Virus record (IMG/VR): IMGVR_UViG_3300043395_000560
Coordinates: 1 to 61,729 of that record
Source: a virus
Taxonomy: Duplodnaviria > Caudoviricetes
Length of the DNA stretch: 61,729 nt
Direction: 5' to 3' (one strand)
Both the position numbers and the translations under genes were made by a program. The notes under the pieces were generated by a model, which did no database searches, had not been told where the DNA came from, and saw only the letters and a program-made list of their open reading frames with translations. Shown here one piece after another: positions 1 through 61,729 of the stretch. Numbering within the stretch: position 1 is the stretch's first letter; each line of letters begins with the position of its first letter.

Positions 1-127
1 GTGGATTCGTATCCACATCAGGTTTAGGAGGTGGATTCGTATCCACCTTGGGCTTGTCCTGCGTTAGCTCATTCTTAACAGCAGCGACAAACGTATGACT
101 GACGCTGCACAGCTTGGCTATCTCACG
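1..127. repeat. Terminal 127-bp direct repeat, left copy (assembly circularisation overlap)
   Basis: Identical to 61603-61729; an ORF reads through the junction in frame; 127 is a common assembler k-mer size. Confidence 0.95.
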
Positions 128-487
128 GTCAGACTTGCCGCGATGCGCGTCCGTTGCCAGCGCAGATACCACCGCCTTGCGCTTATCTTCTCTGGTGCGG
201 GGCAGACCGTGCTTGTCATTGACCGACCAGCTTTTCTCTATCGCTTCCTGCAACGTGCCAGGCACAGTCGTTACAAGAATGCTAGGTGTTTTGATCTTCT
301 TGGCTGCAAAGTAACGGTGGAATCCGTCAACCAGATAGTACTTGTCGCCGTCGTGATACAGCAGGCATGGCGGGAACTGCGCCCCGTCTTTCATAGCCTC
401 CGCATAATCTGCGATGGTGTCCTTCTTCAGTGTTGCTCTGGCTTGTGTACCGGCGTCAATTGTTATTTTGTCTAAACTTAGGTGCAT
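1..487 (-). CDS. ParB/Srx-like N-terminal domain plus HTH protein, 5' part (continues at 61602 down to 61307)
   Basis: Manual translation from ATG 487: MHLSLDKITIDAGTQAR...YYLVDGFHRYFAA...NDKHGLPRTREDKRKAV...KSDREIAKLCSVSHTFVAAVK. DGxHR ParB motif and an HTH. Absent from the ORF track because it spans the contig ends. Confidence 0.85.
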   Translation of the reverse strand, partial: MHLSLDKITIDAGTQARATLKKDTIADYAEAMKDGAQFPPCLLYHDGDKYYLVDGFHRYFAAKKIKTPSILVTTVPGTLQEAIEKSWSVNDKHGLPRTREDKRKAVVSALATDAHRGKSDREIAKLCSVSHTFVAAVKNELTQDKPKVDTNPPPKPDVDTNP

Positions 488-489
488 AT

Positions 490-594
490 TTACTCCCATG
501 TAAATGCAATAAATGCAGCGACCGCTAGGCCAAGGATGCAGCCCGCGCCGATGAGGATGCCGCCAAACAAAACGATGGTGGTGAATGTATCCAT
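490..594 (-). CDS. Small membrane peptide (34 aa)
   Basis: MDTFTTIVLFGGILIGAGCILGLAVAAFIAFTWE; TGATG-coupled to the upstream gene; one hydrophobic helix. Confidence 0.6.
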   Translation of the reverse strand: MDTFTTIVLFGGILIGAGCILGLAVAAFIAFTWE

Positions 595-800
595 CAGTCT
601 CCTTTCTTACCCTTGATAAGATCAATCATCTCGCAGTACGCACTTTTGCTAGCCATGTCATCTCTGGCCATGACCATATCGAAACAGGCGGCGTGAACGT
701 CTGCAAAGTACCGCAGCAAGCGCGCCGCTTCCATATCCATCCCGTTGCGGGAACTGCCTTCAAGATAATCAGCGATCGCATCTGCTTTGGTCTTGATCAC
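594..800 (-). CDS. Hypothetical protein
   Basis: 68-aa ORF coupled to both neighbours by start/stop overlaps. Confidence 0.7.
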   Translation of the reverse strand: MIKTKADAIADYLEGSSRNGMDMEAARLLRYFADVHAACFDMVMARDDMASKSAYCEMIDLIKGKKGD

Positions 801-994
801 AGCACCGACTCCTCTCGCGTAGTGATAGATGCCCTGGCTACGTCAAACAGGAAGCCGTTGTCGGCAGCCACCTGCTCTAGTTGCTTCTCCAGTGCGCGGA
901 ATACATGCCCCGTAAGCTCGTCAGAAAGCCCGTCAGAGGCGCGGAACGCCAGTCTAGCGGTAAACACCAAGTCTGCCTCAAAAAAACTGTCCAT
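797..994 (-). CDS. Hypothetical protein (65 aa, MDSFFEADL...)
   Basis: AGGAGAG RBS before ATG 994; the longer ORF-track start (1051) lies inside the pentamer tract. Confidence 0.7.
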   Translation of the reverse strand: MDSFFEADLVFTARLAFRASDGLSDELTGHVFRALEKQLEQVAADNGFLFDVARASITTREESVL

Positions 995-1017
995 ACACTC
1001 TCCTACTCGTTTTAAAC

Positions 1018-1087
1018 TACCCATGCCATACCTGACCGTAGCTGACCCCACAAAACCAAACCTTGCCTGAGCACGGCTCGCCTAGCC
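1018..1087 (-). ncRNA. GGY-NN pentamer tract E, downstream of the RAMP-like gene
   Basis: Minus strand: GGC-TA GGC-GA GCC-GT GCT-CA GGC-AA GGT-TT GGT-TT TGT-GG GGT-CA GCT-AC GGT-CA GGT-AT GGC-AT GGG-TA; unbroken 5-nt phase. Confidence 0.7.
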
Positions 1088-1091
1088 AGAA

Positions 1092-1706
1092 TTAGTTTTC
1101 AGAAACATTAAACGACACTACATTAAATCGTCCGTACGTTGGGCGGAAGTCGCCTATCCCGACCAACCGACCTGCCATGTGTAACGTATCTTGCAGCCAG
1201 AACTTGTCGATATATTCTGGCACTAGCACCATCAAATCAAAATCAAGCCTGTAGCCTGCGGAGATGGCTGGGCGGACGCGATTGACAGCCTGCCGCTGGA
1301 CTACAGCGCGGCGCTTGTCTTCGTAATCCCATTTGGTTTTGCCGAATGAGGCCAAGTTAGTGAGGCTGACTAACCCAGCTTTTGTCAGATCCATCGCGCT
1401 CTTACGGGGGGAACGGGGATCCTGCTTAAACTTCGAGGCCATGATGATTGATTGCCGCAAGTACTCGCCTGGACAGCACAGCTCACCAGCGTCATTACGC
1501 CAAACGTAAGACTCGATATCGTCAAACTTTTTTAATGCAGAGTTCTTAGGTGCTTTTGCTTTTGTTTCAACAGCTTCGCAATTCCAGCGATGGAAAAGGA
1601 AATCTGTGTTGCCTTCGATCGTGACATGCGCCACATACGGGAACCCAATTTCAATGGATTCCGCACCACCATTACTTACTTCAGCGACTTGTTTTGCTTT
1701 TGACAT
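1092..1706 (-). CDS. Solitary RAMP/Cas7-like RNA-binding protein (204 aa)
   Basis: AGGAGA RBS before ATG 1706 (MSKAKQ...). Motifs VTIEGNTDFLFH, LCCPGEYLRQSI and C-terminal G-rich loop AGRLVGIGDFRPTYGRFNV parallel RAMP beta1, IPGSSLKG and GxGxxRxxGYGR motifs. Confidence 0.7.
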   Translation of the reverse strand: MSKAKQVAEVSNGGAESIEIGFPYVAHVTIEGNTDFLFHRWNCEAVETKAKAPKNSALKKFDDIESYVWRNDAGELCCPGEYLRQSIIMASKFKQDPRSPRKSAMDLTKAGLVSLTNLASFGKTKWDYEDKRRAVVQRQAVNRVRPAISAGYRLDFDLMVLVPEYIDKFWLQDTLHMAGRLVGIGDFRPTYGRFNVVSFNVSEN

Positions 1707-1792
1707 TATCTTTCTCCTAGTTAAAAACCATACCTTGCCCAACCAAGCCGGGCCACGCCCCGACACAACTCGCCGGATCTAGCCACGCCCTG

Positions 1793-1848
1793 TAATGCTC
1801 ACGCATCGCACAGAAGCCTTTTACAAGCCCCTGTACGCTGCCTAGCAG
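1793..1848 (-). repeat. 56-nt hairpin repeat R1
   Basis: Minus RNA CUGCUAGGCAG-CGUACAGGGGCUU-GUAAA-AGGCUUCUGUGCG-AUGCGUGAGCAUUA; 13-bp inner stem with G-U pairs. Confidence 0.9.
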
Positions 1849-1895
1849 CTCCGTGCCACACCCCGCCTGGCCCTGCCAATCCTTGCCAGACCGAA

Positions 1896-1951
1896 TAATG
1901 CTTACGCATCGCTCAGCAGACTGAATCAACCTGCTGAACGCTGCATAGCAG
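1896..1951 (-). repeat. 56-nt hairpin repeat R2
   Basis: Minus RNA CUGCUAUGCAG-CGUUCAGCAGGUUG-AUU-CAGUCUGCUGAGCG-AUGCGUAAGCAUUA; 14-bp inner stem. Confidence 0.9.
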
Positions 1952-2007
1952 CCCTTGCCTAGCCGTGCCGGTGCTTGCCCCGCCGTAACTTGCCACGCCG
2001 TACCCGA

Positions 2008-2063
2008 TGACGCTTACGCATCGCACAGAAAGCTCAGAGAACTCTCTGTACGCTGCACAGCAG
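2008..2063 (-). repeat. 56-nt hairpin repeat R3
   Basis: Minus RNA CUGCUGUGCAG-CGUACAGAGAGUUC-UCU-GAGCUUUCUGUGCG-AUGCGUAAGCGUCA; 14-bp inner stem. Confidence 0.9.
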
Positions 2064-2170
2064 ACCTTGCCCAACCCCAACCAGCCGTATCCAACCGCAA
2101 CTCACCATGCCAGGCACTGCCCCGCCGGACCACGCCACGCCCGAACATGCCGTGCCGAACGACAGTTGAC

Positions 2171-2198
2171 ATCCTACCGGAACAACCTGTTGTGTCTA
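2171..2198 (-). promoter_or_regulatory. Putative sigma70 promoter for the array and RAMP-like gene
   Basis: Minus strand TAGACA-16 nt-TAGGAT; the -10 box ends 14 nt before the first pentamer. Confidence 0.45.
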
Positions 2199-2574
2199 AT
2201 CGTAAATATTAATCGCAGGAAAAAAGTTGATAGCCCTAGAAAAATGAGTAGGCATAGGTTCCCCAAGGGTGATAGCCCGAGCCAAGTGCGCAGCACACTT
2301 GTTGGAGTATCACGCCTGCCCAGAGTAGCCTGTGATGCCAGCTACTCCTAGCTGCTGGAACTTGTCTGATGTTGCCAGACTTGCTACAGCCCCCAGAAGG
2401 CAGCGATTATCTCGATCACAGGTCTTGTCTCACCACTTGGCCCTGTGTCTTGTGTAGTCCCTCGCTGACAGGCTACGTGGCTTGCTCCGGGGTGGACGGC
2501 AGCCAGTGTTTTCTCTCCGGCAGCCCATGCAGGCTCACTGCTATCGCGGGAGGTGCGGTCAGGAGAGCGCCCAT

Positions 2575-2673
2575 AAAAAAACCCTTAAGGTTTGGCTCTC
2601 CGTGTATGGGCACGTCCCCGGGGGGATGAGAACCAAAGCTCAAGGGCTTTAGTTGGTTGTCGCTGCCCATACA
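2575..2673 (-). promoter_or_regulatory. Attenuator-like long terminator hairpin with alternative pairing
   Basis: AAAGCCCTTGAGCTTTGGTTCTC...GAGAGCCAAACCTTAAGGGTTTTTTT; the loop contains TGCCCATACA, complementary to TGTATGGGCA just upstream. Confidence 0.55.
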
Positions 2674-2845
2674 GTGACGCGCACAGTGTAGGACAGATTC
2701 AGATGTGATGCAAGTGGCCAGTCTTTCCTGGCTGTCACTACTCGCTGCGCCTGCCGCTTCTCTCTTCCGGTGGTGTGTCCGGAACTCAGCAGTATCCGCT
2801 TTCGATATTGAGAGTGTACCGGAACAATGTATTGACATCAACGAC

Positions 2846-2878
2846 AAAAAAGAGGGCGCCGGAGATCGTCGCGCCCTC
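2846..2878 (-). terminator. Intrinsic terminator-like hairpin
   Basis: GAGGGCGC-11 nt-GCGCCCTC followed by TTTTTT on the minus strand. Confidence 0.55.
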
Positions 2879-3019
2879 AACTCCCACACGGGAGCATTGC
2901 CGCCGCGAAGAAACCTGATCAGAGGAGAAAGAGAGCAGATCAGGCAGCTTCAATATAACAATAGCACACAAACTCATGTATTGGCAGCTCTAGGAAACAT
3001 GCGGGTTTTCAGGGCAAAA

Positions 3020-3033
3020 TGGCAACGTTGCCA
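3020..3033. promoter_or_regulatory. Perfect 14-bp palindrome TGGCAACGTTGCCA (operator/parS-like)
   Basis: AATGGCAACGTTGCCACT occurs at 3018-3035 and again at 53578-53595; this copy lies 35 bp upstream of a consensus promoter. Confidence 0.5.
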
Positions 3034-3068
3034 CTTTTCAATACACTGTTCCTGTTACAAATAAACTG

Positions 3069-3097
3069 TTGACATACACTAGATGTCGAACTATATT
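3069..3097 (+). promoter_or_regulatory. Sigma70 promoter for the rightward operon
   Basis: TTGACA-17 nt-TATATT, followed by AGGAGG RBS and ATG 3116. Confidence 0.75.
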
Positions 3098-3115
3098 TAG
3101 ATGAAGGAGGGCGAC

Positions 3116-3343
3116 ATGTTGAGTGATGAGCATCGGCAAATCTTGGTGGAAGCGCATCGTCGGTTCAAGGAGACACGGGATCGGGATGAGTTTAACGACA
3201 CTATCCAGATGGTAAAAGCAATAGCGCCGGAGAAGTTTTTTCATGGCGAGAAAGATCCCAGATTGGGACTACGGGTGTTCGTGCATCAGCCGTTCAGTGG
3301 CCATTGGTCTGGCCGGGCAATAACCAACAAGCGGGCGTGGTGA
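3116..3343 (+). CDS. Hypothetical protein
   Basis: AGGAGG RBS; first gene after the promoter. Confidence 0.7.
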   Translation: MLSDEHRQILVEAHRRFKETRDRDEFNDTIQMVKAIAPEKFFHGEKDPRLGLRVFVHQPFSGHWSGRAITNKRAW

Positions 3344-3555
3344 TGAGTGACAAACTATTTGCACCATTCAACTGGCAGGCGGCGTGGGAATGGGTCAATC
3401 GGATCTGGGCGAAGAGCCTGGTAGCGGTCTTCCTATTCTTCCTTGGCCTATGGATAGGCATAGTCCAGACAGAAGGACGGGTGGCCAGTGACTGCAAGTT
3501 TGCACAGGCTTTCCGCGTGGACATCCAGGCGTTCACTTGTCAGAGGAAGCTATGA
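3343..3555 (+). CDS. Small membrane protein
   Basis: TGATG coupling; hydrophobic stretch LVAVFLFFLGLWIGIV. Confidence 0.65.
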   Translation: MSDKLFAPFNWQAAWEWVNRIWAKSLVAVFLFFLGLWIGIVQTEGRVASDCKFAQAFRVDIQAFTCQRKL

Positions 3556-3881
3556 ACAGAGATGACATTATCCGCATGGCTGAAGAAGCCTGTAATGGCA
3601 AGCAACTTGAGTATTTCAACGGTTGGGGCGTCGTGTTTGACCATGAACAACTTGAACGCTTTGCCAACCTAGTCGCAGCAGCGGAGCGTGAGAAGTGGAA
3701 GTGGGAAGATCTTCATACATGCCACCCACACTGTGATCGACCTGCTTGTGTTGCGGTGAGAAGGGCCAGGGAAGACGAGCGCGAAATGTGTGCAGCAGTC
3801 TGTGACACGTTAGGCGATGAGTACGCTGACGCGAATCCGGCAGACTGCGCGTTCGCTATCCGCGAGAGAGGTGCGCCATGA
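3552..3881 (+). CDS. Hypothetical phage protein (MNRDDIIRMA...LERFA...ERE.CA...AIR type)
   Basis: ATGA coupling; motif pattern familiar from small phage accessory proteins. Confidence 0.7.
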   Translation: MNRDDIIRMAEEACNGKQLEYFNGWGVVFDHEQLERFANLVAAAEREKWKWEDLHTCHPHCDRPACVAVRRAREDEREMCAAVCDTLGDEYADANPADCAFAIRERGAP

Positions 3882-3999
3882 GTGATAAGCAAATGTTTGT
3901 ATTGGCGGGGGTAGCGTTTCTTGCGCCGCACTTGCCTCGTCGCTTTGCCTACGTGCTGGCAGTTACCTATTTTGTTCTTGGTGTGTTTTGGGGGCAACA

Positions 4000-4302
4000 A
4001 TGACCACGGATAGAGAGCTAATGCAGCAAGCATTGAATGTGTTGAAGATTTTTGTTGATGGCGGCAACTCAGCTTGGGCTAGAAAAATAATTGAAATAAA
4101 AGAAGCTCTACGCGCTCGACTTGCGCAGCCAGAGCGCGAATGGCAAGGGCTGACGGATGAAGTGAATGCTGAGTTGGTGGAGGCGCTAAAAGAAGTTAGG
4201 AGCGACATTCGTCATATGCTCAAAGGCCATTTCGTGCATCTGAAAGATGTTGAGGAAGAATTAAGCGCCGCCATCGCCAAAGCTACAGGAGAACAACAAT
4301 GA
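4000..4302 (+). CDS. Modular accessory protein (LRARLAQPE and REWQGLT modules)
   Basis: Shares DNA/peptide modules with neighbouring genes. Confidence 0.7.
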   Translation: MTTDRELMQQALNVLKIFVDGGNSAWARKIIEIKEALRARLAQPEREWQGLTDEVNAELVEALKEVRSDIRHMLKGHFVHLKDVEEELSAAIAKATGEQQ

Positions 4303-4411
4303 TTGATGCTTTTATATTTTGGCTTATTAAACCACTCGCCGAATTTTTAGGCACGATAGTTTTAATATTAGTTTTGCTGGCGGTATTGCATTGGGTATAT
4401 GGAGGTAAAAA

Positions 4412-4627
4412 ATGACCATCACACTAACACGCGAGGAAGCGCAGCAGGTGCTGGATGCGTTGAATAAATATGTCGGCGTTGTCGTGTCTGTGAACGATCC
4501 TGATAGCTGGACTCCGAAAGTTGCAGATGGGGGTGACCCAGCAAGGAAAGCAATCGAAACCCTCCGCGCCCGACTCGCACTACACGACATGAACAAAGCA
4601 GCAGAACAGAACGGGGAGGAACTGTGA
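4412..4627 (+). CDS. Modular accessory protein (MTITLTREEAQQVLDAL module)
   Basis: GGAGG RBS; first 51 bp identical to 5594-5644. Confidence 0.75.
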   Translation: MTITLTREEAQQVLDALNKYVGVVVSVNDPDSWTPKVADGGDPARKAIETLRARLALHDMNKAAEQNGEEL

Positions 4628-5334
4628 TTACATTGACTAAAGAGGAAGCGCAGCAGGTGCTGGATGCTTTGGAATGGAACCTTCCAGTGATTGAAGATTT
4701 TGGCGATAAGGAACAATTACATGAACATCATAAAGCAATCGAAAGCCTCCGCGCTCGACTCGTGCAGCCTGAACCCTACAAACAACCTGAAGATAACCGG
4801 CTTCTGATGCAAGCGTATCGAGCAATACATGAAAAGCAGCCTGAACCGGAGCCGGTGGCGTGGGTAGAAAACCTGACTGATGCGCAGCCTCATGCCGTGA
4901 CTGACCTGAAGTATTGCAGCATGGCGCAGCATGAGCGTGGGGAGCATTTGAAGTACATCCCACTATATAAAGACCCAACACCTTGCCAAACCTGCGAAGC
5001 ATTAGCGCGAACAGTAATGATGGATCAGACCTATCACGACAACGTCACATCACAGCGTGAAATTACAGATGATGAGTTTGTGGCTGAAGCAAAAAAGAGG
5101 GGGTTTTTTGGATTTGTGCCGCCAAAGCTATGGCTGTGGAAAAACTTTGTTGATGGCAAGCCAGAGTATTGGGCGTTTGACAACCCATACCCAAGAAATC
5201 TTAACGATGGCGACCCGCAGACGATTGGTCAGCCTTGTGGCTATGCAATTTTTAAACCCTCGCGTGACGGAAGTAATGGACGAACTGAAGAACAAGTATT
5301 GCGCGAAATTAGTGAAGCACAAGAAAGGAGTTAA
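4624..5334 (+). CDS. Modular accessory protein
   Basis: EEAQQVLDAL, LRARL and QPEPEPVAW modules. Confidence 0.75.
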   Translation: MITLTKEEAQQVLDALEWNLPVIEDFGDKEQLHEHHKAIESLRARLVQPEPYKQPEDNRLLMQAYRAIHEKQPEPEPVAWVENLTDAQPHAVTDLKYCSMAQHERGEHLKYIPLYKDPTPCQTCEALARTVMMDQTYHDNVTSQREITDDEFVAEAKKRGFFGFVPPKLWLWKNFVDGKPEYWAFDNPYPRNLNDGDPQTIGQPCGYAIFKPSRDGSNGRTEEQVLREISEAQERS

Positions 5335-5336
5335 AT

Positions 5337-5597
5337 ATGCTTTATTTTCAAGAGCCAGACATTGAGCCTAATTACCGCATCAACGGTGTGGACTTATACA
5401 CGACCGACCAAACAATTCAACACGCGGTAAAGATGCAAGAGTTTCAACTCGAAATGCTGAGAAAGCAAAAAATAGTAACCGAAGCTTCTCAGAAAGAATG
5501 GCAGGGGTTTAGCGAACAGGAAATTGGCTTGTGGAGAGACTCGGCGCATGGAATATTGCGGTGGGCAGAAATGGTATTGCGGGAGAAAAATACATGA
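5337..5597 (+). CDS. Modular accessory protein
   Basis: KEWQGFS and LREKNT modules. Confidence 0.7.
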   Translation: MLYFQEPDIEPNYRINGVDLYTTDQTIQHAVKMQEFQLEMLRKQKIVTEASQKEWQGFSEQEIGLWRDSAHGILRWAEMVLREKNT

Positions 5598-5977
5598 CCA
5601 TCACACTAACACGCGAGGAAGCGCAGCAGGTGCTGGATGCGTTGGATTCTTGCGAATGGTATGACGATGGCGGGTTCGGTTGTCCGTCATATGACTACGA
5701 TAAAGTTTCCCCAGCACGAGAAACCCTCCGCGCCCGACTCGCGCAGCCTGAGCCGGAGCCGGTGGCAGACAAGTACCTGATGGAAGTTGAATGCACAAAG
5801 TGCGGAGCAAAGCAGGATGGCATCTTGACCGTCAACGCCCCACCACAGCGCGAATGGCAGGGGCTGACGGAAGATGAGATCAAGAAAGAGCAGCACCACA
5901 TTGATTGGACGAACGTGCATACCTACGCAAAATTTGCCCGCGCCATCGAAGCCAAGCTAAAGGAGAAGAACACATGA
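5594..5977 (+). CDS. Modular accessory protein with a CxxC insert
   Basis: Contains all five shared modules plus ECTKCG. Confidence 0.75.
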   Translation: MTITLTREEAQQVLDALDSCEWYDDGGFGCPSYDYDKVSPARETLRARLAQPEPEPVADKYLMEVECTKCGAKQDGILTVNAPPQREWQGLTEDEIKKEQHHIDWTNVHTYAKFARAIEAKLKEKNT

Positions 5978-6102
5978 GAAACGCGCTTGTTTTGTTTGTA
6001 GTGTTTATATCTGGGTGCGTTTCAACACATTATTTTTGGTTTACTGGACGGTTTACTTTTGCAGAAAAAGAAATTAAATGGGAGCGCAATCGTGGGCGAT
6101 AA
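5974..6102 (+). CDS. Putative small lipoprotein
   Basis: MRNALVLFVVFISGC; lipobox-like ISGC; AGGAGA RBS. Confidence 0.45.
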   Translation: MRNALVLFVVFISGCVSTHYFWFTGRFTFAEKEIKWERNRGR

Positions 6103-6361
6103 ACAACTGCTACAACGCGCATGGGATGTTTTGGCGATATGGAAAGAAACATATCCTGAAGGATGGGACGCTGATGATGAACAATTATTAGATGATCTTT
6201 TAACTCGAATAGCAGAGCAACGGCGCGAATGGCAAGGGCTGACGATGGAAGAATTAGACGAACTTGTTGAAGCCCACGGTAACAACGAATTTACTCTGGG
6301 CATGGTGGGTCATGTATTTGCAATAGATGTCGAAGCCAAGCTGAAGGAGAAGAACGCATGA
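6092..6361 (+). CDS. Modular accessory protein
   Basis: REWQGLT and EAKLKEKN modules; GTG start inferred. Confidence 0.65.
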   Translation: MGDKQLLQRAWDVLAIWKETYPEGWDADDEQLLDDLLTRIAEQRREWQGLTMEELDELVEAHGNNEFTLGMVGHVFAIDVEAKLKEKNA

Positions 6362-6534
6362 GATGGCTTGCGCTTTGTTTGTTCATTACAGGATGCGGGC
6401 AGAGCTGTGAAGAACGAGGCGGCGTTCAAATTCAAACTGGAGTTACTACCATTATTCAAAGCAATGGAAAGTTTTTTTACCCAATGCAGTACCCAGTTTA
6501 TGAGTGCGTAATAAAGGAGAAGAATAATGGTTGA
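6358..6534 (+). CDS. Putative small lipoprotein (58 aa)
   Basis: MRWLALCLFITGC-GQSCEERGG...; lipobox-like ITGC; AGGAGA RBS; below the ORF-track cutoff. Confidence 0.6.
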   Translation: MRWLALCLFITGCGQSCEERGGVQIQTGVTTIIQSNGKFFYPMQYPVYECVIKEKNNG

Positions 6535-6829
6535 AGCGCCAGTTCAAATTACGGATGAGTACGTCAGGACGTATTTGTGGGAACACAATTTGGTTGCTAT
6601 AGATGAAGGTGACTTCAGGATGCTGAAGCAGCCGACAAAACTGTTAGCAATACCCGCGTTAATGGAACAAGCAGGATGGGTACGCAAGCGCGAATGGCAG
6701 GGGCTAACGGAAGGGGAGGTGGCAGATATTGTTGAGTCAACTAATTTGGCCGCCACTTATATTTATTTCCAAGCTATCGAAGCCAAGCTGAAGCTAAAGA
6801 ATGGCTACGCCGAGGAGAAGAACACATGA
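6527..6829 (+). CDS. Modular accessory protein
   Basis: REWQGLT and IEAKLK...EKNT modules. Confidence 0.7.
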   Translation: MVEAPVQITDEYVRTYLWEHNLVAIDEGDFRMLKQPTKLLAIPALMEQAGWVRKREWQGLTEGEVADIVESTNLAATYIYFQAIEAKLKLKNGYAEEKNT

Positions 6830-56824: not shown

Positions 56825-57109
56825 ATGAAAAACTTTTCAATTGCACCCTGGAAAGCCGCTTATTCCTACTCGCACGAATATGTCCGCGACATTAAAGACG
56901 CGCAAGGGGAAATCATCGCCCAGGTTTGCGACCTAGAAAAAGAATCAGACGAAAGCACCGCCAACGCCCGACTCATCGCCGCCGCGCCGGACTTGCTCGA
57001 CGCGCTGCGAGGGATGCTCGAATACTTCTGCGAGAACGGACACGACGATTATTCCGACACCGAAACCGTACAAGCAGCGCGCGCAGCAATAGCCAAAGCC
57101 ACCAACTAG
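56825..57109 (+). CDS. Hypothetical early protein (ANARLIAAAPDLL type)
   Basis: PW...ANARLIAAAPDLLDAL...ARAAIAKAT motif. Confidence 0.75.
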   Translation: MKNFSIAPWKAAYSYSHEYVRDIKDAQGEIIAQVCDLEKESDESTANARLIAAAPDLLDALRGMLEYFCENGHDDYSDTETVQAARAAIAKATN

Positions 57110-57120
57110 GAGATCAGACG

Positions 57121-57369
57121 ATGAACACACTACGCGAAACCGCAGAAAATTTTGCCCTGAATCAATGGTTATCAGACGCGCCATGCCACCTGACATATCA
57201 GGAAATAATTAGCCAACTTCGGTCAGAAGAATATCTCGAAGGTGATGACATTGTTGTTTGGGAGCCGATAGAAGATTACTCCGGCGAATGGATTGCCGAC
57301 ACGATTGAAGATACGCGCTGCGCTTTTGAACGCTCCGCTGCGCGGGTCAAAGTTGTTGCAATACTATGA
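57121..57369 (+). CDS. Hypothetical acidic early protein
   Basis: Linker RBS plus ATG. Confidence 0.65.
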   Translation: MNTLRETAENFALNQWLSDAPCHLTYQEIISQLRSEEYLEGDDIVVWEPIEDYSGEWIADTIEDTRCAFERSAARVKVVAIL

Positions 57370-57388
57370 ACTAACAGGAGATCAGACG

Positions 57389-57559
57389 ATGATATTGGAT
57401 GCCTATGTTATCGAAAATGAAAACGATAATTCTTTGCTTTGGTCTAACGCATGGGGTTGGACAGATGGCGATGACTTTGATGTTTTTTCATTTGACGAGA
57501 AAGAGGATTTTCAACTGCCCGTAGAAGGCAAATGGATGCAGTTAATTGTTACTGCCTAA
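57389..57559 (+). CDS. Hypothetical acidic early protein
   Basis: Linker RBS plus ATG; WSNAWGW. Confidence 0.65.
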   Translation: MILDAYVIENENDNSLLWSNAWGWTDGDDFDVFSFDEKEDFQLPVEGKWMQLIVTA

Positions 57560-57573
57560 CAGGAGATCAGACG

Positions 57574-57741
57574 ATGAACTTATACCGCTTCGAATGTACC
57601 GTATGGGTCAGAGGTAACACCCTTGAAGAAGCCCAAAAAGAACTGCACGACGAAGTGCAATACCACTTTGGGCAAGATAACAACTTGGTCGCGCTCGACA
57701 GTAACGAGGGTGAGCTAGCCGAAGATGACACCGATTTATAG
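57574..57741 (+). CDS. Hypothetical acidic early protein
   Basis: Linker RBS plus ATG. Confidence 0.65.
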   Translation: MNLYRFECTVWVRGNTLEEAQKELHDEVQYHFGQDNNLVALDSNEGELAEDDTDL

Positions 57742-57752
57742 GAGATCAGACG

Positions 57753-58109
57753 ATGAAAACAGCAGAACTAACAGGCGCAGCCCTTGACTGGGCGATAGCG
57801 AAGTGTGAATTCAGCGGGTGCGAAGATTGGAATGGCACTTTAGCTGGCATTGATGCGGTGTCCGACATGGAGGGCAAAGCGTTTTCCCCCTCAACCGACT
57901 GGGCGCAGGGCGGGACAATCATTGAGCGCGAAGGTATGCAACTGTGGAGGGGCGGCGAGTGGTGCGCGTCACTAGATCAATCGTTCAACCCGCCAGACTT
58001 TCAGACAGGCACAACCCCACTTATTGCGGCCATGCGCTGCTACGTTGCAAGCAAACTAGGTGATGACGTAGAACTACCGGAAGAACTGCTATCCTGCGCC
58101 CATGACTAG
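57753..58109 (+). CDS. NinX/DUF2591-like protein
   Basis: KTAELTGAALDWA...PSTDWAQGG.IIERE...TPLIAAMRCYVASKLG. Confidence 0.75.
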   Translation: MKTAELTGAALDWAIAKCEFSGCEDWNGTLAGIDAVSDMEGKAFSPSTDWAQGGTIIEREGMQLWRGGEWCASLDQSFNPPDFQTGTTPLIAAMRCYVASKLGDDVELPEELLSCAHD

Positions 58110-61306: not shown

Positions 61307-61729
61307 TTATTGTTCGAGTTTCTTGAGCTTTTTGGTAAGAGATGCAACCTGCTTCATCAGCTGATTGTTTTCCCTCAAGAGAGAATCACGGGAATCCGTG
61401 ACACCTTTTAATTCTATCTCCAACAATCTGATCTGTGCGCGTAAATCTTTGATGACTGATTCGGCCATGGCTTTGTCGAGTTCATCTGCATCCATCGCGG
61501 CGATCGCCAACTTGTCAGACAGCGCTTCGTTCTCCGACTTCAATAACTCAATCGTTGCCTCTAATTCTTCTTTGAATACCGCTGACTCGTCCGGCTCTTG
61601 AGGTGGATTCGTATCCACATCAGGTTTAGGAGGTGGATTCGTATCCACCTTGGGCTTGTCCTGCGTTAGCTCATTCTTAACAGCAGCGACAAACGTATGA
61701 CTGACGCTGCACAGCTTGGCTATCTCACG
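61307..61729 (-). CDS. ParB-like protein, 3' part (linker plus coiled coil)
   Basis: In frame with the ORF starting at 487 across the circular junction. Confidence 0.85.
   Translation of the reverse strand, partial: REIAKLCSVSHTFVAAVKNELTQDKPKVDTNPPPKPDVDTNPPQEPDESAVFKEELEATIELLKSENEALSDKLAIAAMDADELDKAMAESVIKDLRAQIRLLEIELKGVTDSRDSLLRENNQLMKQVASLTKKLKKLEQ
61603..61729. repeat. Terminal 127-bp direct repeat, right copy
   Basis: Identical to 1-127. Confidence 0.95.

What the first reader, a model, noticed from the sequence alone, without database searches (positions are those of the whole stretch)
1092..1706. RAMP-like motifs in a stand-alone phage protein
Seen: VTIEGNTDFLFH near the N-terminus, LCCPGEYLRQSI, and terminal AGRLVGIGDFRPTYGRFNV. 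Established: Cas7-group RAMPs have a first strand ending in LH, an IPGSSLKG motif and a C-terminal glycine-rich loop before the last strand. Inference: a divergent RAMP without CRISPR context, possibly related to the ancestor of class 1 effectors. An alternative role is anti-CRISPR together with decoy RNAs.
Basis: partly seen in the sequence, partly recalled or inferred. Interest (0 to 1): 0.78.

Follow-up and report, generated by a model that had tools for sequence, protein, structure and literature searches.

The report
Phage VIPR guide-RNA system (Vipr protein)
The protein is a phage-borne relative of CRISPR backbone proteins that belongs to the recently described VIPR systems, and it sits among its own five-letter-repeat guide RNAs, one of which matches an early gene of rival temperate phages.

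Summary
The three motifs are real. They lie on the minus strand in a 204-aa ORF (1092-1706). The protein is a RAMP: the AlphaFold model (pLDDT 94.8) matches Csm3/Cmr4/Cas7 chains (VIA Z up to 12.0; Foldseek E 2e-7). A family profile hits the solved SUSP1 Vipr protein over its full length (E 6e-18), and the GGY-contact residues are conserved.

Five tracts of YNNGG pentamers (66 units; 64 of 66 start with a pyrimidine) flank the gene on the same strand (1021-2159). Three are followed by a 57-nt structured tail with covarying pairs. No comparable tract occurs elsewhere in the 61.7-kb phage genome. 75 of 80 related loci carry such tracts.

Under the published one-base-skip rule, tract 2 matches one conserved, codon-phased site (ARTVKTGKPT) in an early-operon gene of temperate phages, 22 of 22 positions in one contig. 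Guides from related phages hit neighbouring genes of the same operon. There is no self-target.

This is therefore a VIPR system as described in three 2026 preprints: a new member of a known kind. The anti-CRISPR alternative has no support. Unexplained: two tail-less tracts that abut ribosome-binding sites, no conserved accessory gene, and no targets found for four tracts.

The parts
2171..2198 (-). sigma-70-like promoter candidate (TAGACA-16-TAGGAT) 12 nt upstream of tract 1
   Evidence: 9 of 12 consensus positions. The scan found 3 such sites against a mean of 2.5 in shuffles, so this is weak and only a candidate.
2065..2159 (-). vrRNA tract T1: 19 pentamer units (14 with GG, 19 with Y at position 1)
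2008..2064 (-). tail 1: conserved structured 57-nt element 3' of T1
   Evidence: Repeat family D3. Alignment and covariation. MFE -29.1 kcal/mol, z -4.2.
1953..2007 (-). vrRNA tract T2: 11 units (9 GG). Guide NN = CG AC GT AA AC GG AA CC AC TA AA. It has a predicted natural target.
1896..1952 (-). tail 2
   Evidence: MFE -29.7 kcal/mol, z -4.6.
1851..1895 (-). vrRNA tract T3: 9 units (9 GG)
1793..1850 (-). tail 3
   Evidence: MFE -29.4 kcal/mol, z -5.0.
1728..1792 (-). tract T4: 13 units (10 GG). It has no tail and ends 9 nt before the AGGAG of vipr.
   Evidence: It is replaced by a different tract in the near-identical phage L002.
1092..1706 (-). vipr gene, 204 aa, RAMP fold. RRM core, thumb hairpin about residues 128-148, G-loop 183-193.
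1021..1090 (-). tract T5: 14 units (10 GG). It starts 1 nt after the vipr stop codon, has no tail, and ends 14 nt before the AGGAG and 26 nt before the ATG of the next small ORF.
   Evidence: A public DNA contig carries a 5-nt (one-unit) insertion at 1023.
797..994 (-). small ORF A (65 aa) downstream of vipr, function unknown. No evidence that it is an accessory (vap) gene.
   Evidence: No Pfam or PHROG family. Found only in L002, at 60% identity.
594..800 (-). small ORF B (68 aa), function unknown
   Evidence: No Pfam or PHROG family. Found only in L002, at 84% identity.

Best explanation
Window 1021-2198 (minus strand) is a VIPR (Viral Interference Programmable Repeat) locus at the head of the leftward operon of a complete 61.7-kb freshwater phage.

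Shown here: the 204-aa protein is a Vipr, a minimal RAMP/Cas7-like RNA-binding protein. Five same-strand tracts of YNNGG pentamers surround it, and three of them carry a conserved, structured 57-nt 3' tail.

Inferred by homology with the SUSP1 system: the tracts are transcribed and cut into vrRNAs. One Vipr protomer binds each pentamer. H39, R145, D186, F187 and R188 hold the two G's, and E81/Y82 plus the G-loop hold the pyrimidine. The two variable bases of each unit are left exposed. The filament then pairs those dinucleotides with double-stranded DNA, skipping every third target base, and blocks transcription without cutting.

Inferred from matches: tract T2 is aimed at the codon-phased site R-T-V-K-T-G-K-P-T-Y-K near the 3' end of a PHROG-2480 gene. 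That gene is the second gene of the early lytic operon, next to the CI-like repressor, in temperate phages of Rhodospirillales-like Alphaproteobacteria. The likely role is to silence the early operon of a resident or co-infecting rival phage. Targets of T1, T3, T4 and T5 are unknown.
For: Protein.
- The profile of 64 relatives hits PDB 36pp_D 'SUSP1 Vipr protein' at E 6.2e-18, covering residues 5-189 of 202. The single sequence scores E 9e-4.
- AF2 model: pLDDT 94.8, pTM 0.87.
- Foldseek against PDB: top rows are Csm3 and type VII Cas7, E 2.2e-7 to 9e-6, TM 0.43-0.57.
- VIA wide: 6s6b_I Z 12.0, 9g9a_D Z 11.8, 6ae2_B Z 11.7. Ranks 1-28 are all CRISPR RAMP chains.
- Contact residues are conserved (one search read).

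RNA.
- Five tracts with 9-14 GG units lie only at 1021-2159 on the gene's strand. Elsewhere in the window there are two weak 5-of-8 runs, while shuffles give 2.7 such runs.
- Position 1, which my tract caller did not use, is C or T in 64 of 66 units. The NN positions have entropy 1.96 and 1.99 bits.
- 75 of 80 IMG/VR relatives have at least one tract on the vipr strand against 3 of 80 on the other strand, 235 tracts against 4.
- Tail: in 15 tails, the three-hairpin model has 98.1% of cells paired. Helix 2 has 7 of 8 pairs changed on both sides, and 0 of 500 shuffles reach that. By my reading of the alignment, the loop of the third hairpin in that model is always GNRA: GUAA in 12, GUGA in 2, GCGA in 1.

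Target.
- Seven exact 18-base one-skip patterns scanned in IMG/VR gave 0, 0, 12, 1, 0, 0 and 1 hits.
- All 12 T2 hits, and 14 of 22 hits in species genomes, lie at the same site of one protein family. With the motif left out of the query the family match is E 1e-14 to 3e-93. Two pairs are the same sequence.
- The skipped base is the wobble position. L092 matches 22 of 22 positions, against a shuffled-guide maximum of 17.
- Of 166 guides from the relatives, 7 reach at least 80% NN match in 182 kb of these target loci, against 0 of 166 shuffled guides. These include independent codon-phased hits on the Sak4-like gene start and on the ORF upstream.
- No self-target rises above the null.
- Target context: integrase, CI-like repressor, then the early operon.
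Against: - No expression data of value. Two metatranscriptome libraries hold short contigs over vipr and T4, but DNA carry-over cannot be excluded and contigs show no RNA ends.
- T4 and T5 lack the tail. Paper 10.64898/2026.10.15.759431 (passage) treats the tail as what makes a vrRNA competent for complex formation.
- No conserved accessory (vap) gene was found.
- 14 of 66 units lack GG.
- The T2 match is in effect one evolutionary event, because the hits are homologues. With 5 guides tried and about 0.3 chance hits per scan, I put its chance probability at a few percent, not at zero.
- The phage has 50.7% G+C and the target prophages 60-66%, which is odd for a shared host.
- T1, T3, T4 and T5 gave no credible target.
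Confidence: 0.9

Rival explanations
1. It is a VIPR system, but the T2 match to the PHROG-2480 gene is a coincidence. The natural targets of all five tracts, and the rival elements or host genes they act on, remain unknown.
For: The 26 hits are homologues, so they count as one event. 18-base patterns do give occasional chance hits: 1 each for T3 and T5, and 8 of 22 genome hits for T2. The G+C content of phage and targets differs by 10-15 points. Four of five tracts have no target.
Against: L092 matches all 11 units, against a null maximum of 17 of 22. The skip base falls on the wobble position in every hit. Guides of other phages in this clade hit neighbouring genes of the same operon, 7 of 166 against 0 of 166 shuffled. 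Relatives L004 and L010 carry variants of the same guide that differ only at NN positions.
Confidence: 0.25
2. The protein is an anti-CRISPR: a RAMP mimic that, with decoy RNAs, soaks up or poisons host type I/III complexes.
For: It is phage-encoded, has a Cas7-like fold and sits beside repeat RNA.
Against: The repeats are 5-nt YNNGG units, not CRISPR repeats. Rfam, which includes CRISPR-DR families, found no relevant match at E up to 1: its one row is a mir-1542 match at 206-268, far under its gathering score. The protein keeps the GGY-reading residues of SUSP1 Vipr. The variable dinucleotides match a phage gene under the VIPR rule. The solved homologue silences DNA targets (paper 720920 Results).
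Confidence: 0.02
3. The locus regulates the phage's own or the host's genes, as a timing switch or host take-over device, and is not aimed at rival mobile elements.
For: It sits in the divergent control region at the head of an operon. T4 and T5 abut ribosome-binding sites. Targets of four tracts are unknown.
Against: No tract matches the phage's own genome better than shuffled guides. The best is T2 at 16 of 22, against a null maximum of 18. The tracts vary greatly between near-identical phages, which fits an arms race better than fixed regulation. Host genomes could not be tested because the host is unknown.
Confidence: 0.05
4. The locus is a decaying remnant that no longer functions.
For: 14 of 66 units are degenerate, two tracts lack tails, and there is no accessory gene.
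Against: The ORF is intact and all contact residues are kept. The family is very large and conserved: 5325 proteins at E up to 0.001, and 695 representatives of 50%-identity clusters. The tails keep their pairing through compensatory changes. The paper notes frequent internal degeneracy in working vrRNAs (methods section 20).
Confidence: 0.03

Closest known systems
VIPR system of Escherichia phage SUSP1 (type II; Vipr structure PDB 36pp). Papers 10.64898/2026.04.26.720920, 10.64898/2026.04.26.720927 and 10.64898/2026.10.15.759431.
   Same: Full-length homologous protein of the same size (204 against 202 aa) with the GGY-contact residues kept. Same-strand YNNGG tracts of 9-19 units, against 9-16 in the paper. 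A conserved structured 3' tail. Phage-encoded, with no cas genes and no CRISPR array. No self-target. A codon-phased predicted target in a rival mobile element.
   Different: The protein is distant: pairwise E is only 9e-4 and is confined to the C-terminal 54 residues. W178 is F187 here. The tail is a 57-nt element whose best fold is one long hairpin, and I found no evidence for the pseudoknot described for SUSP1. The array lies upstream of the gene. Two tracts have no tail and touch ribosome-binding sites. No conserved vap gene. The predicted target is a temperate-phage early operon, not a satellite recombinase.
Pseudomonas fulva prophage VIPR clade (paper 720920, Results)
   Same: The guides are predicted to hit resident prophages near the lysis-lysogeny switch. 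Here the target gene lies next to the CI-like repressor.
   Different: This phage has terminal repeats, and no integrase turned up in the 15 ORFs I scanned. I did not compare the protein with the P. fulva one.
CRISPR backbone RAMPs: Csm3/Cmr4 (type III), Cas7 (types I and VII), Csf2 (type IV)
   Same: RRM core, thumb hairpin and glycine-rich loop. Best structural matches have Z 10-12 over about 150-160 residues.
   Different: 6-15% sequence identity. No Pfam, NCBIfam or PADLOC Cas family match. No CRISPR array or partner cas genes. The RNA period is 5 nt, with 3 bases held by the protein, instead of 6 nt with one flipped base.

Membership tests
VIPR / Vipr | Sequence homology to an experimentally characterised Vipr protein | tested here: met
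   Profile of 64 relatives against 36pp_D SUSP1 Vipr: E 6.2e-18, residues 5-189 of 202.
VIPR / Vipr | Minimal RAMP fold: single RRM core, thumb, glycine-rich loop | tested here: met
   Model pLDDT 94.8 with a beta-hairpin at 128-148 and a loop at 183-193. RAMP chains fill ranks 1-28 of the VIA search, Z up to 12.0. Foldseek E 2.2e-7.
VIPR / Vipr | Residues that read GGY (SUSP1 H17, R138, D177, W178, R179, E71/M72) | tested here: met
   They align to H39, R145, D186, F187, R188 and E81/Y82 (residue roles from paper 720927 section 5). Trp is replaced by Phe. R145, D186 and R188 are at least 90% conserved in the family.
VIPR / Vipr | Same-strand tandem YNNGG repeats (at least 4 units) next to the gene, with variable NN | tested here: met
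   Five tracts, 66 units, Y at position 1 in 64 of 66, NN entropy 1.96 and 1.99 bits. 75 of 80 relatives have tracts on the gene strand.
VIPR / Vipr | Invariant structured 3' tail after the repeat tract | tested here: inconclusive
   Present and covarying after T1, T2 and T3. Absent after T4 and T5.
VIPR / Vipr | Accessory gene (vap) beside vipr | tested here: inconclusive
   The two small downstream ORFs have no family and occur only in L002. A ParB-like gene follows at varying distance in 4 relatives. The paper counts six vap genes for seven types, so a type without vap may exist.
VIPR / Vipr | Guides match other mobile elements by the 1-nt-skip rule and do not match the own genome | tested here: met
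   Met for T2 only: 22 of 22 in L092; 12 of 12 IMG/VR and 14 of 22 genome hits in one family. No self-match above the null for any tract. No credible target for T1, T3, T4 or T5.
VIPR / Vipr | vrRNAs expressed, bound by Vipr as a filament, and silencing of the target | not testable with these tools
   Only short contigs in RNA libraries over 1281-1482 and 1568-1806, which do not show transcription.
VIPR type I-VII | Placement in the published Vipr tree, with the matching array and vap architecture | not testable with these tools
   The type definitions are in figures and supplementary data that I could not see. The text says only that SUSP1 and P. fulva are type II and that types I and V include hammerhead-interspersed arrays. 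No hammerhead was found here.
CRISPR Cas7 group (Csm3/Cmr4/Cas7/Csf2) | Match to a curated Cas7-group sequence model | tested here: not met
   Pfam: none above the cut-off. NCBIfam: 0 families. PADLOC: 0 families.
CRISPR Cas7 group (Csm3/Cmr4/Cas7/Csf2) | Encoded with a CRISPR array and partner cas genes | tested here: not met
   No CRISPR-like array in the whole genome. 14 of the other ORFs were scanned (10 against PHROGs, 8 against Pfam, four of them in both), and none hit a cas family except a Cas4-domain-like exonuclease typical of phage recombination modules. The remaining ORFs were not scanned.

The most novel reading that the evidence does not exclude
The two tail-less tracts are not ordinary guides. 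They sit inside the vipr messenger RNA: T4 ends 9 nt before the vipr ribosome-binding site, and T5 fills the gap between the vipr stop and the next gene's ribosome-binding site. They may be cis-acting landing pads. Vipr would coat its own mRNA, setting its own level and that of the downstream gene, while the NN positions stay free to be swapped as guide cassettes. A tract starts within 45 nt of the vipr stop in 46 of 70 distinct relatives, and one ends within 45 nt of the start in 24 of 71. If true, this would be a built-in feedback layer, or a tail-independent class of vrRNA, that is not described in the parts of the three VIPR preprints I read.
Probability: 0.2. Interest if true: 0.55.

Novelty: new member of a known kind. 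Interest (0 to 1): 0.42.

Why it matters
VIPR was first described in preprints of April to October 2026, and experiments cover only SUSP1-like and a few other systems. This locus shows that a very large clade of environmental phages carries the same machinery: 5325 proteins in the word-indexed search and 695 clusters at 50% identity. The clade uses a different tail and an upstream array, and has no obvious accessory gene. The locus also offers a concrete guide-target pair for testing: T2 against the ARTVKTGKPT site of a temperate-phage early gene. Finally, a sequence-only reader recognised a RAMP from three short motifs, which is useful calibration for the scan.

Tried and rejected
- Pfam, NCBIfam and PADLOC gave no family for the protein. 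PHROGs gave only phrog_4652, function unknown.
- megablast of 1-6000 against GenBank phages: no match. tblastn found one record, DSL-LC04, at 65.5% identity, where the homologue is annotated 'helix-turn-helix transcriptional regulator'.
- Rfam on 1-3600 at E up to 1: no hammerhead, CRISPR-DR or other relevant family.
- Exact one-skip scans of IMG/VR for T1 (two halves) and T4 (two halves) gave 0 hits each.
- T3 gave 1 hit (L095), not codon-phased. T5 gave 1 hit (L096), whose flanking units do not match (22 of 28). I rate both as chance.
- Full T1 pattern with up to 3 mismatches: 0 of 5 genomes that carry T2 targets, and 0 of 401 genomes sampled from the order of one of them.
- The window's guides against 605 kb of related VIPR loci: nothing above the shuffled null.
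- The metagenome pattern scan gave no answer three times, so metagenomes were not searched.
- Complex prediction with three copies of the protein: no verdict, score 0.00. It is neither for nor against oligomerisation, which in SUSP1 occurs along the RNA.
- RNAalifold and single-sequence folding prefer one long hairpin for the tail, while a three-hairpin model fits equally well. The outer pairs never vary, so the two cannot be told apart. I found no evidence for a pseudoknot.
- The noncoding stretch 2250-2716 folds no better than shuffles (z -1.77).
- Supplementary files of the papers were closed. They may hold this clade's type and may already list this clade.

Full report
**What is at the coordinates.** The window is a complete virus record of 61,729 bases with direct terminal repeats. 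By my own prefix-suffix comparison the repeats are 127 bp. Read on the plus strand, 1092-1706 is full of stops. These are residues 28-39, 76-87 and 178-196. The ATG at 1706 is preceded by AGGAG at 1714-1718.

**The protein is a RAMP and a Vipr.**
- Curated libraries do not name it. Pfam gave nothing above threshold. NCBIfam and PADLOC gave nothing. PHROGs gave only phrog_4652, function unknown.
- It is nevertheless very common. The word-indexed search found 5325 proteins at E up to 0.001 among 5404 candidates. The exhaustive search found 695 representatives of 50%-identity clusters.
- The single sequence gave one weak hit among solved structures, 36pp_D 'SUSP1 Vipr protein' (E 9e-4, C-terminal 54 residues).
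- A profile of the query and 63 relatives (A2) raised this to E 6.2e-18 over residues 5-189 of 202.
- An AlphaFold2 model built on A2 has pLDDT 94.8.
- Foldseek against the PDB put Csm3 and type VII Cas7 chains on top (E 2.2e-7, TM 0.43-0.57).
- The Foldseek-independent search gave Z 12.0, 11.8 and 11.7 for Cmr4 and Csm3 chains. CRISPR RAMP chains fill ranks 1-28.
- The cryo-EM preprint (10.64898/2026.04.26.720927; I read the outline and sections 5 and 6) names the SUSP1 residues that hold the GGY bases. In the alignment they correspond to:
  - H17 to H39
  - E71/M72 to E81/Y82
  - R138 to R145
  - D177/W178/R179 to D186/F187/R188

On the same strand as the gene I found five runs of pentamers of the form YNNGG:

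| Tract | Window coordinates | Units |
|---|---|---|
| T1 | 2159-2065 | 19 |
| T2 | 2007-1953 | 11 |
| T3 | 1895-1851 | 9 |
| T4 | 1792-1728 | 13 |
| T5 | 1090-1021 | 14 |

- The vipr gene lies between T4 and T5.
- Of the 66 units, 52 end in GG, 64 have G at position 4, and 64 start with C or T. My tract caller did not use the starting base, so that count is independent of how the tracts were found. The two middle positions are nearly random (1.96 and 1.99 bits).
- Nothing comparable occurs elsewhere on either strand. There are only two 5-of-8 runs, as many as shuffled sequence gives.
- T1, T2 and T3 are each followed by a 57-58-nt element. The repeat finder reports this as a three-copy family with spacing 103 and 112.
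- I aligned 15 such tails, three from the window and twelve from L002-L012. The central 8-bp helix has 7 pairs with changes on both sides. Pairing is 98.1% overall, and no shuffle of 500 reaches the observed covariation.
- Each tail folds at about -29 kcal/mol, z -4.2 to -5.0.
- The outer pairs never vary. A single long hairpin and three hairpins, the last with a GNRA loop, therefore fit equally well.
- This layout is the one described for VIPR RNAs. I read the Results of 10.64898/2026.04.26.720920 and methods sections 18, 20, 26 and 27. They describe 9-16 YNNGG repeats with conserved GGY, hypervariable NN, and an invariant structured 3' tail.

**Relatives.**
- 80 IMG/VR loci encode relatives at 52-100% identity.
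- 75 of the 80 have at least one tract (7 or more GG units) on the vipr strand, against 3 on the other strand. That is 235 tracts against 4.
- L002 is a near-identical phage (Vipr 99.5% identical by tblastn). It keeps T5, differs by one dinucleotide in each of T2 and T3, and has an unrelated tract in place of T4.
- Public DNA contigs show a one-unit (5-nt) insertion in T5 and joints between tails.
- The tracts therefore turn over as cassettes while the protein stays the same.

**Targets.** I applied the published rule: the NN bases are kept in order, with one free base between them, and either strand may be hit.
- No tract matches the phage itself better than shuffled guides.
- Seven exact 18-base patterns were scanned in IMG/VR:

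| Pattern | Hits |
|---|---|
| T1, first half | 0 |
| T1, second half | 0 |
| T2 | 12 |
| T3 | 1 |
| T4, first half | 0 |
| T4, second half | 0 |
| T5 | 1 |

- The single T3 and T5 hits look like chance.
- All 12 T2 hits lie at the same place, the codons for R-T-V-K/N-T-G-K-P-T. This is about 15 codons from the end of a protein of roughly 160 residues, and the free base is always the wobble base.
- The same pattern in the species-genome collection gave 22 hits. 14 are in this family and 8 are in unrelated short frames. By record title, 12 of the 14 are Alphaproteobacteria (mostly Rhodospirillales-like such as Magnetospirillum and Phaeospirillum, plus one Erythrobacter); the other two are titled Stygiobacter sp. 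and Pseudomonadota bacterium.
- I repeated the family test with the motif removed from the query. 26 of 34 hits are homologues, E 1e-14 to 3e-93. Two pairs are the same sequence in both collections.
- L092 matches all 11 units, 22 of 22, against a maximum of 17 for 200 shuffled guides.
- The family is phrog_2480, function unknown.
- In L085 the gene follows a serine integrase and a CI-like repressor on the other strand. It is the second gene of an operon that continues with a Sak4-like annealing protein and a Cas4-domain exonuclease.
- I tested 166 distinct guides from the 80 relatives against 182 kb of these loci. 7 reach 80% NN match, against 0 of 166 shuffled guides.
- Apart from two T2 homologues, these include:
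  - L020 and L014 on the first codons of the Sak4-like gene;
  - L003 on the ORF just upstream of the target gene (all three codon-phased);
  - a weaker hit in the exonuclease gene;
  - one likely chance hit.

**Mechanism and reservations.** The array starts 12 nt after a weak promoter-like site. It heads the leftward operon that runs on through a ParB-like gene into helicase and primase genes. The operon diverges from a strong promoter-like site for the rightward genes at 3069-3097. This fits expression early in infection. I infer the following, all by homology with SUSP1:
1. The tracts are processed into vrRNAs.
2. One protomer binds each pentamer.
3. Pairing with DNA is gapped.
4. The outcome is silencing of a rival phage's early operon.

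The reservations are these:
- The T2 match is one evolutionary event.
- The phage has 50.7% G+C and the targets 60-66%.
- Four tracts have no target.
- RNA-library contigs over 1281-1482 and 1568-1806 do not prove transcription.
- T4 and T5 have no tail.
- No accessory gene is conserved.

A tract starts within 45 nt after the vipr stop in 46 of 70 distinct relatives. One ends within 45 nt before the start in 24 of 71. The tail-less, RBS-abutting arrangement is therefore a clade feature that I cannot explain. Feedback on the vipr mRNA is my boldest reading of it.

**Comparison and verdict.** The locus meets the defining features of VIPR that can be tested by computation. It fails the tests for membership of the CRISPR Cas7 families, even though it shares their fold. 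VIPR is in print only as three 2026 preprints found by one search. For the third, 10.64898/2026.10.15.759431, I read the outline, section 17 and a set of passages. I could not see supplementary files, so I cannot say whether this clade is among the 667 published systems or which of the seven types it is. I rate it a new member of a known kind.

Noticed in passing
window 2250-2716 (minus strand), within the ORF-poor stretch 2160-3100: About 470 nt upstream of the array is conserved at 75-86% in L003, L004 and L010. In the near-identical phage L002 the part 2222-2555 is replaced. There is no convincing ORF. Two hairpin-plus-T-run motifs are visible by eye near 2845-2878 and 2574-2592. Folding is no better than shuffles (z -1.77), and Rfam finds nothing.
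   Followed up: partly
window 4412-6829 (+): A run of five or six paralogous small genes sharing ITLTREEAQQVLDAL, REWQGLT and a C-terminal EAKLKEKN. Each stop overlaps the next start (families D4, D8, D11, D13, D14). No Pfam family for the one tested.
   Followed up: no
window 1-127 = 61603-61729: The 127-bp terminal repeat holds two copies, 30 nt apart, of a 25-nt unit containing the 16-bp palindrome GTGGATTCGTATCCAC. It lies inside the coding region of the ParB-like gene, where it encodes a repeated PKPDVDTNP peptide.
   Followed up: partly
window 57103-57756: Four copies of a 22-nt intergenic element carrying a ribosome-binding site and start codon (CTAACAGGAGATCAGACGATGA), spaced 179-268 nt apart (D7 and D15).
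   Followed up: no
L001 11992-12609 (GenBank OR003939.1, phage DSL-LC04): The 65.5%-identical homologue is annotated 'helix-turn-helix transcriptional regulator'. On the evidence here it is a Vipr, so that annotation is probably wrong.
   Followed up: partly
L052 from 5 nt after the vipr stop; L045 490 nt after the stop: Some relatives carry very long uninterrupted tracts: 143 units (135 with GG) in L052 and 98 units in L045. This is far beyond the 9-16 units given for SUSP1-type vrRNAs.
   Followed up: no
window 900-2400 in public runs X3 and X15: A DNA contig has a 5-nt insertion at 1023, which is one repeat unit in T5. Another run shows joints 1729/1998, 1862/2070 and 1952/2012 that remove or replace whole tract-plus-tail cassettes.
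   Followed up: partly
window 797-994 against L002 4713-4907: The window and L002 share Vipr at 99.5% and the ParB-like protein at 98.8%. The small ORF right after vipr is only 60% identical, and T4 is replaced. The mosaicism is local and centred on the VIPR locus.
   Followed up: partly
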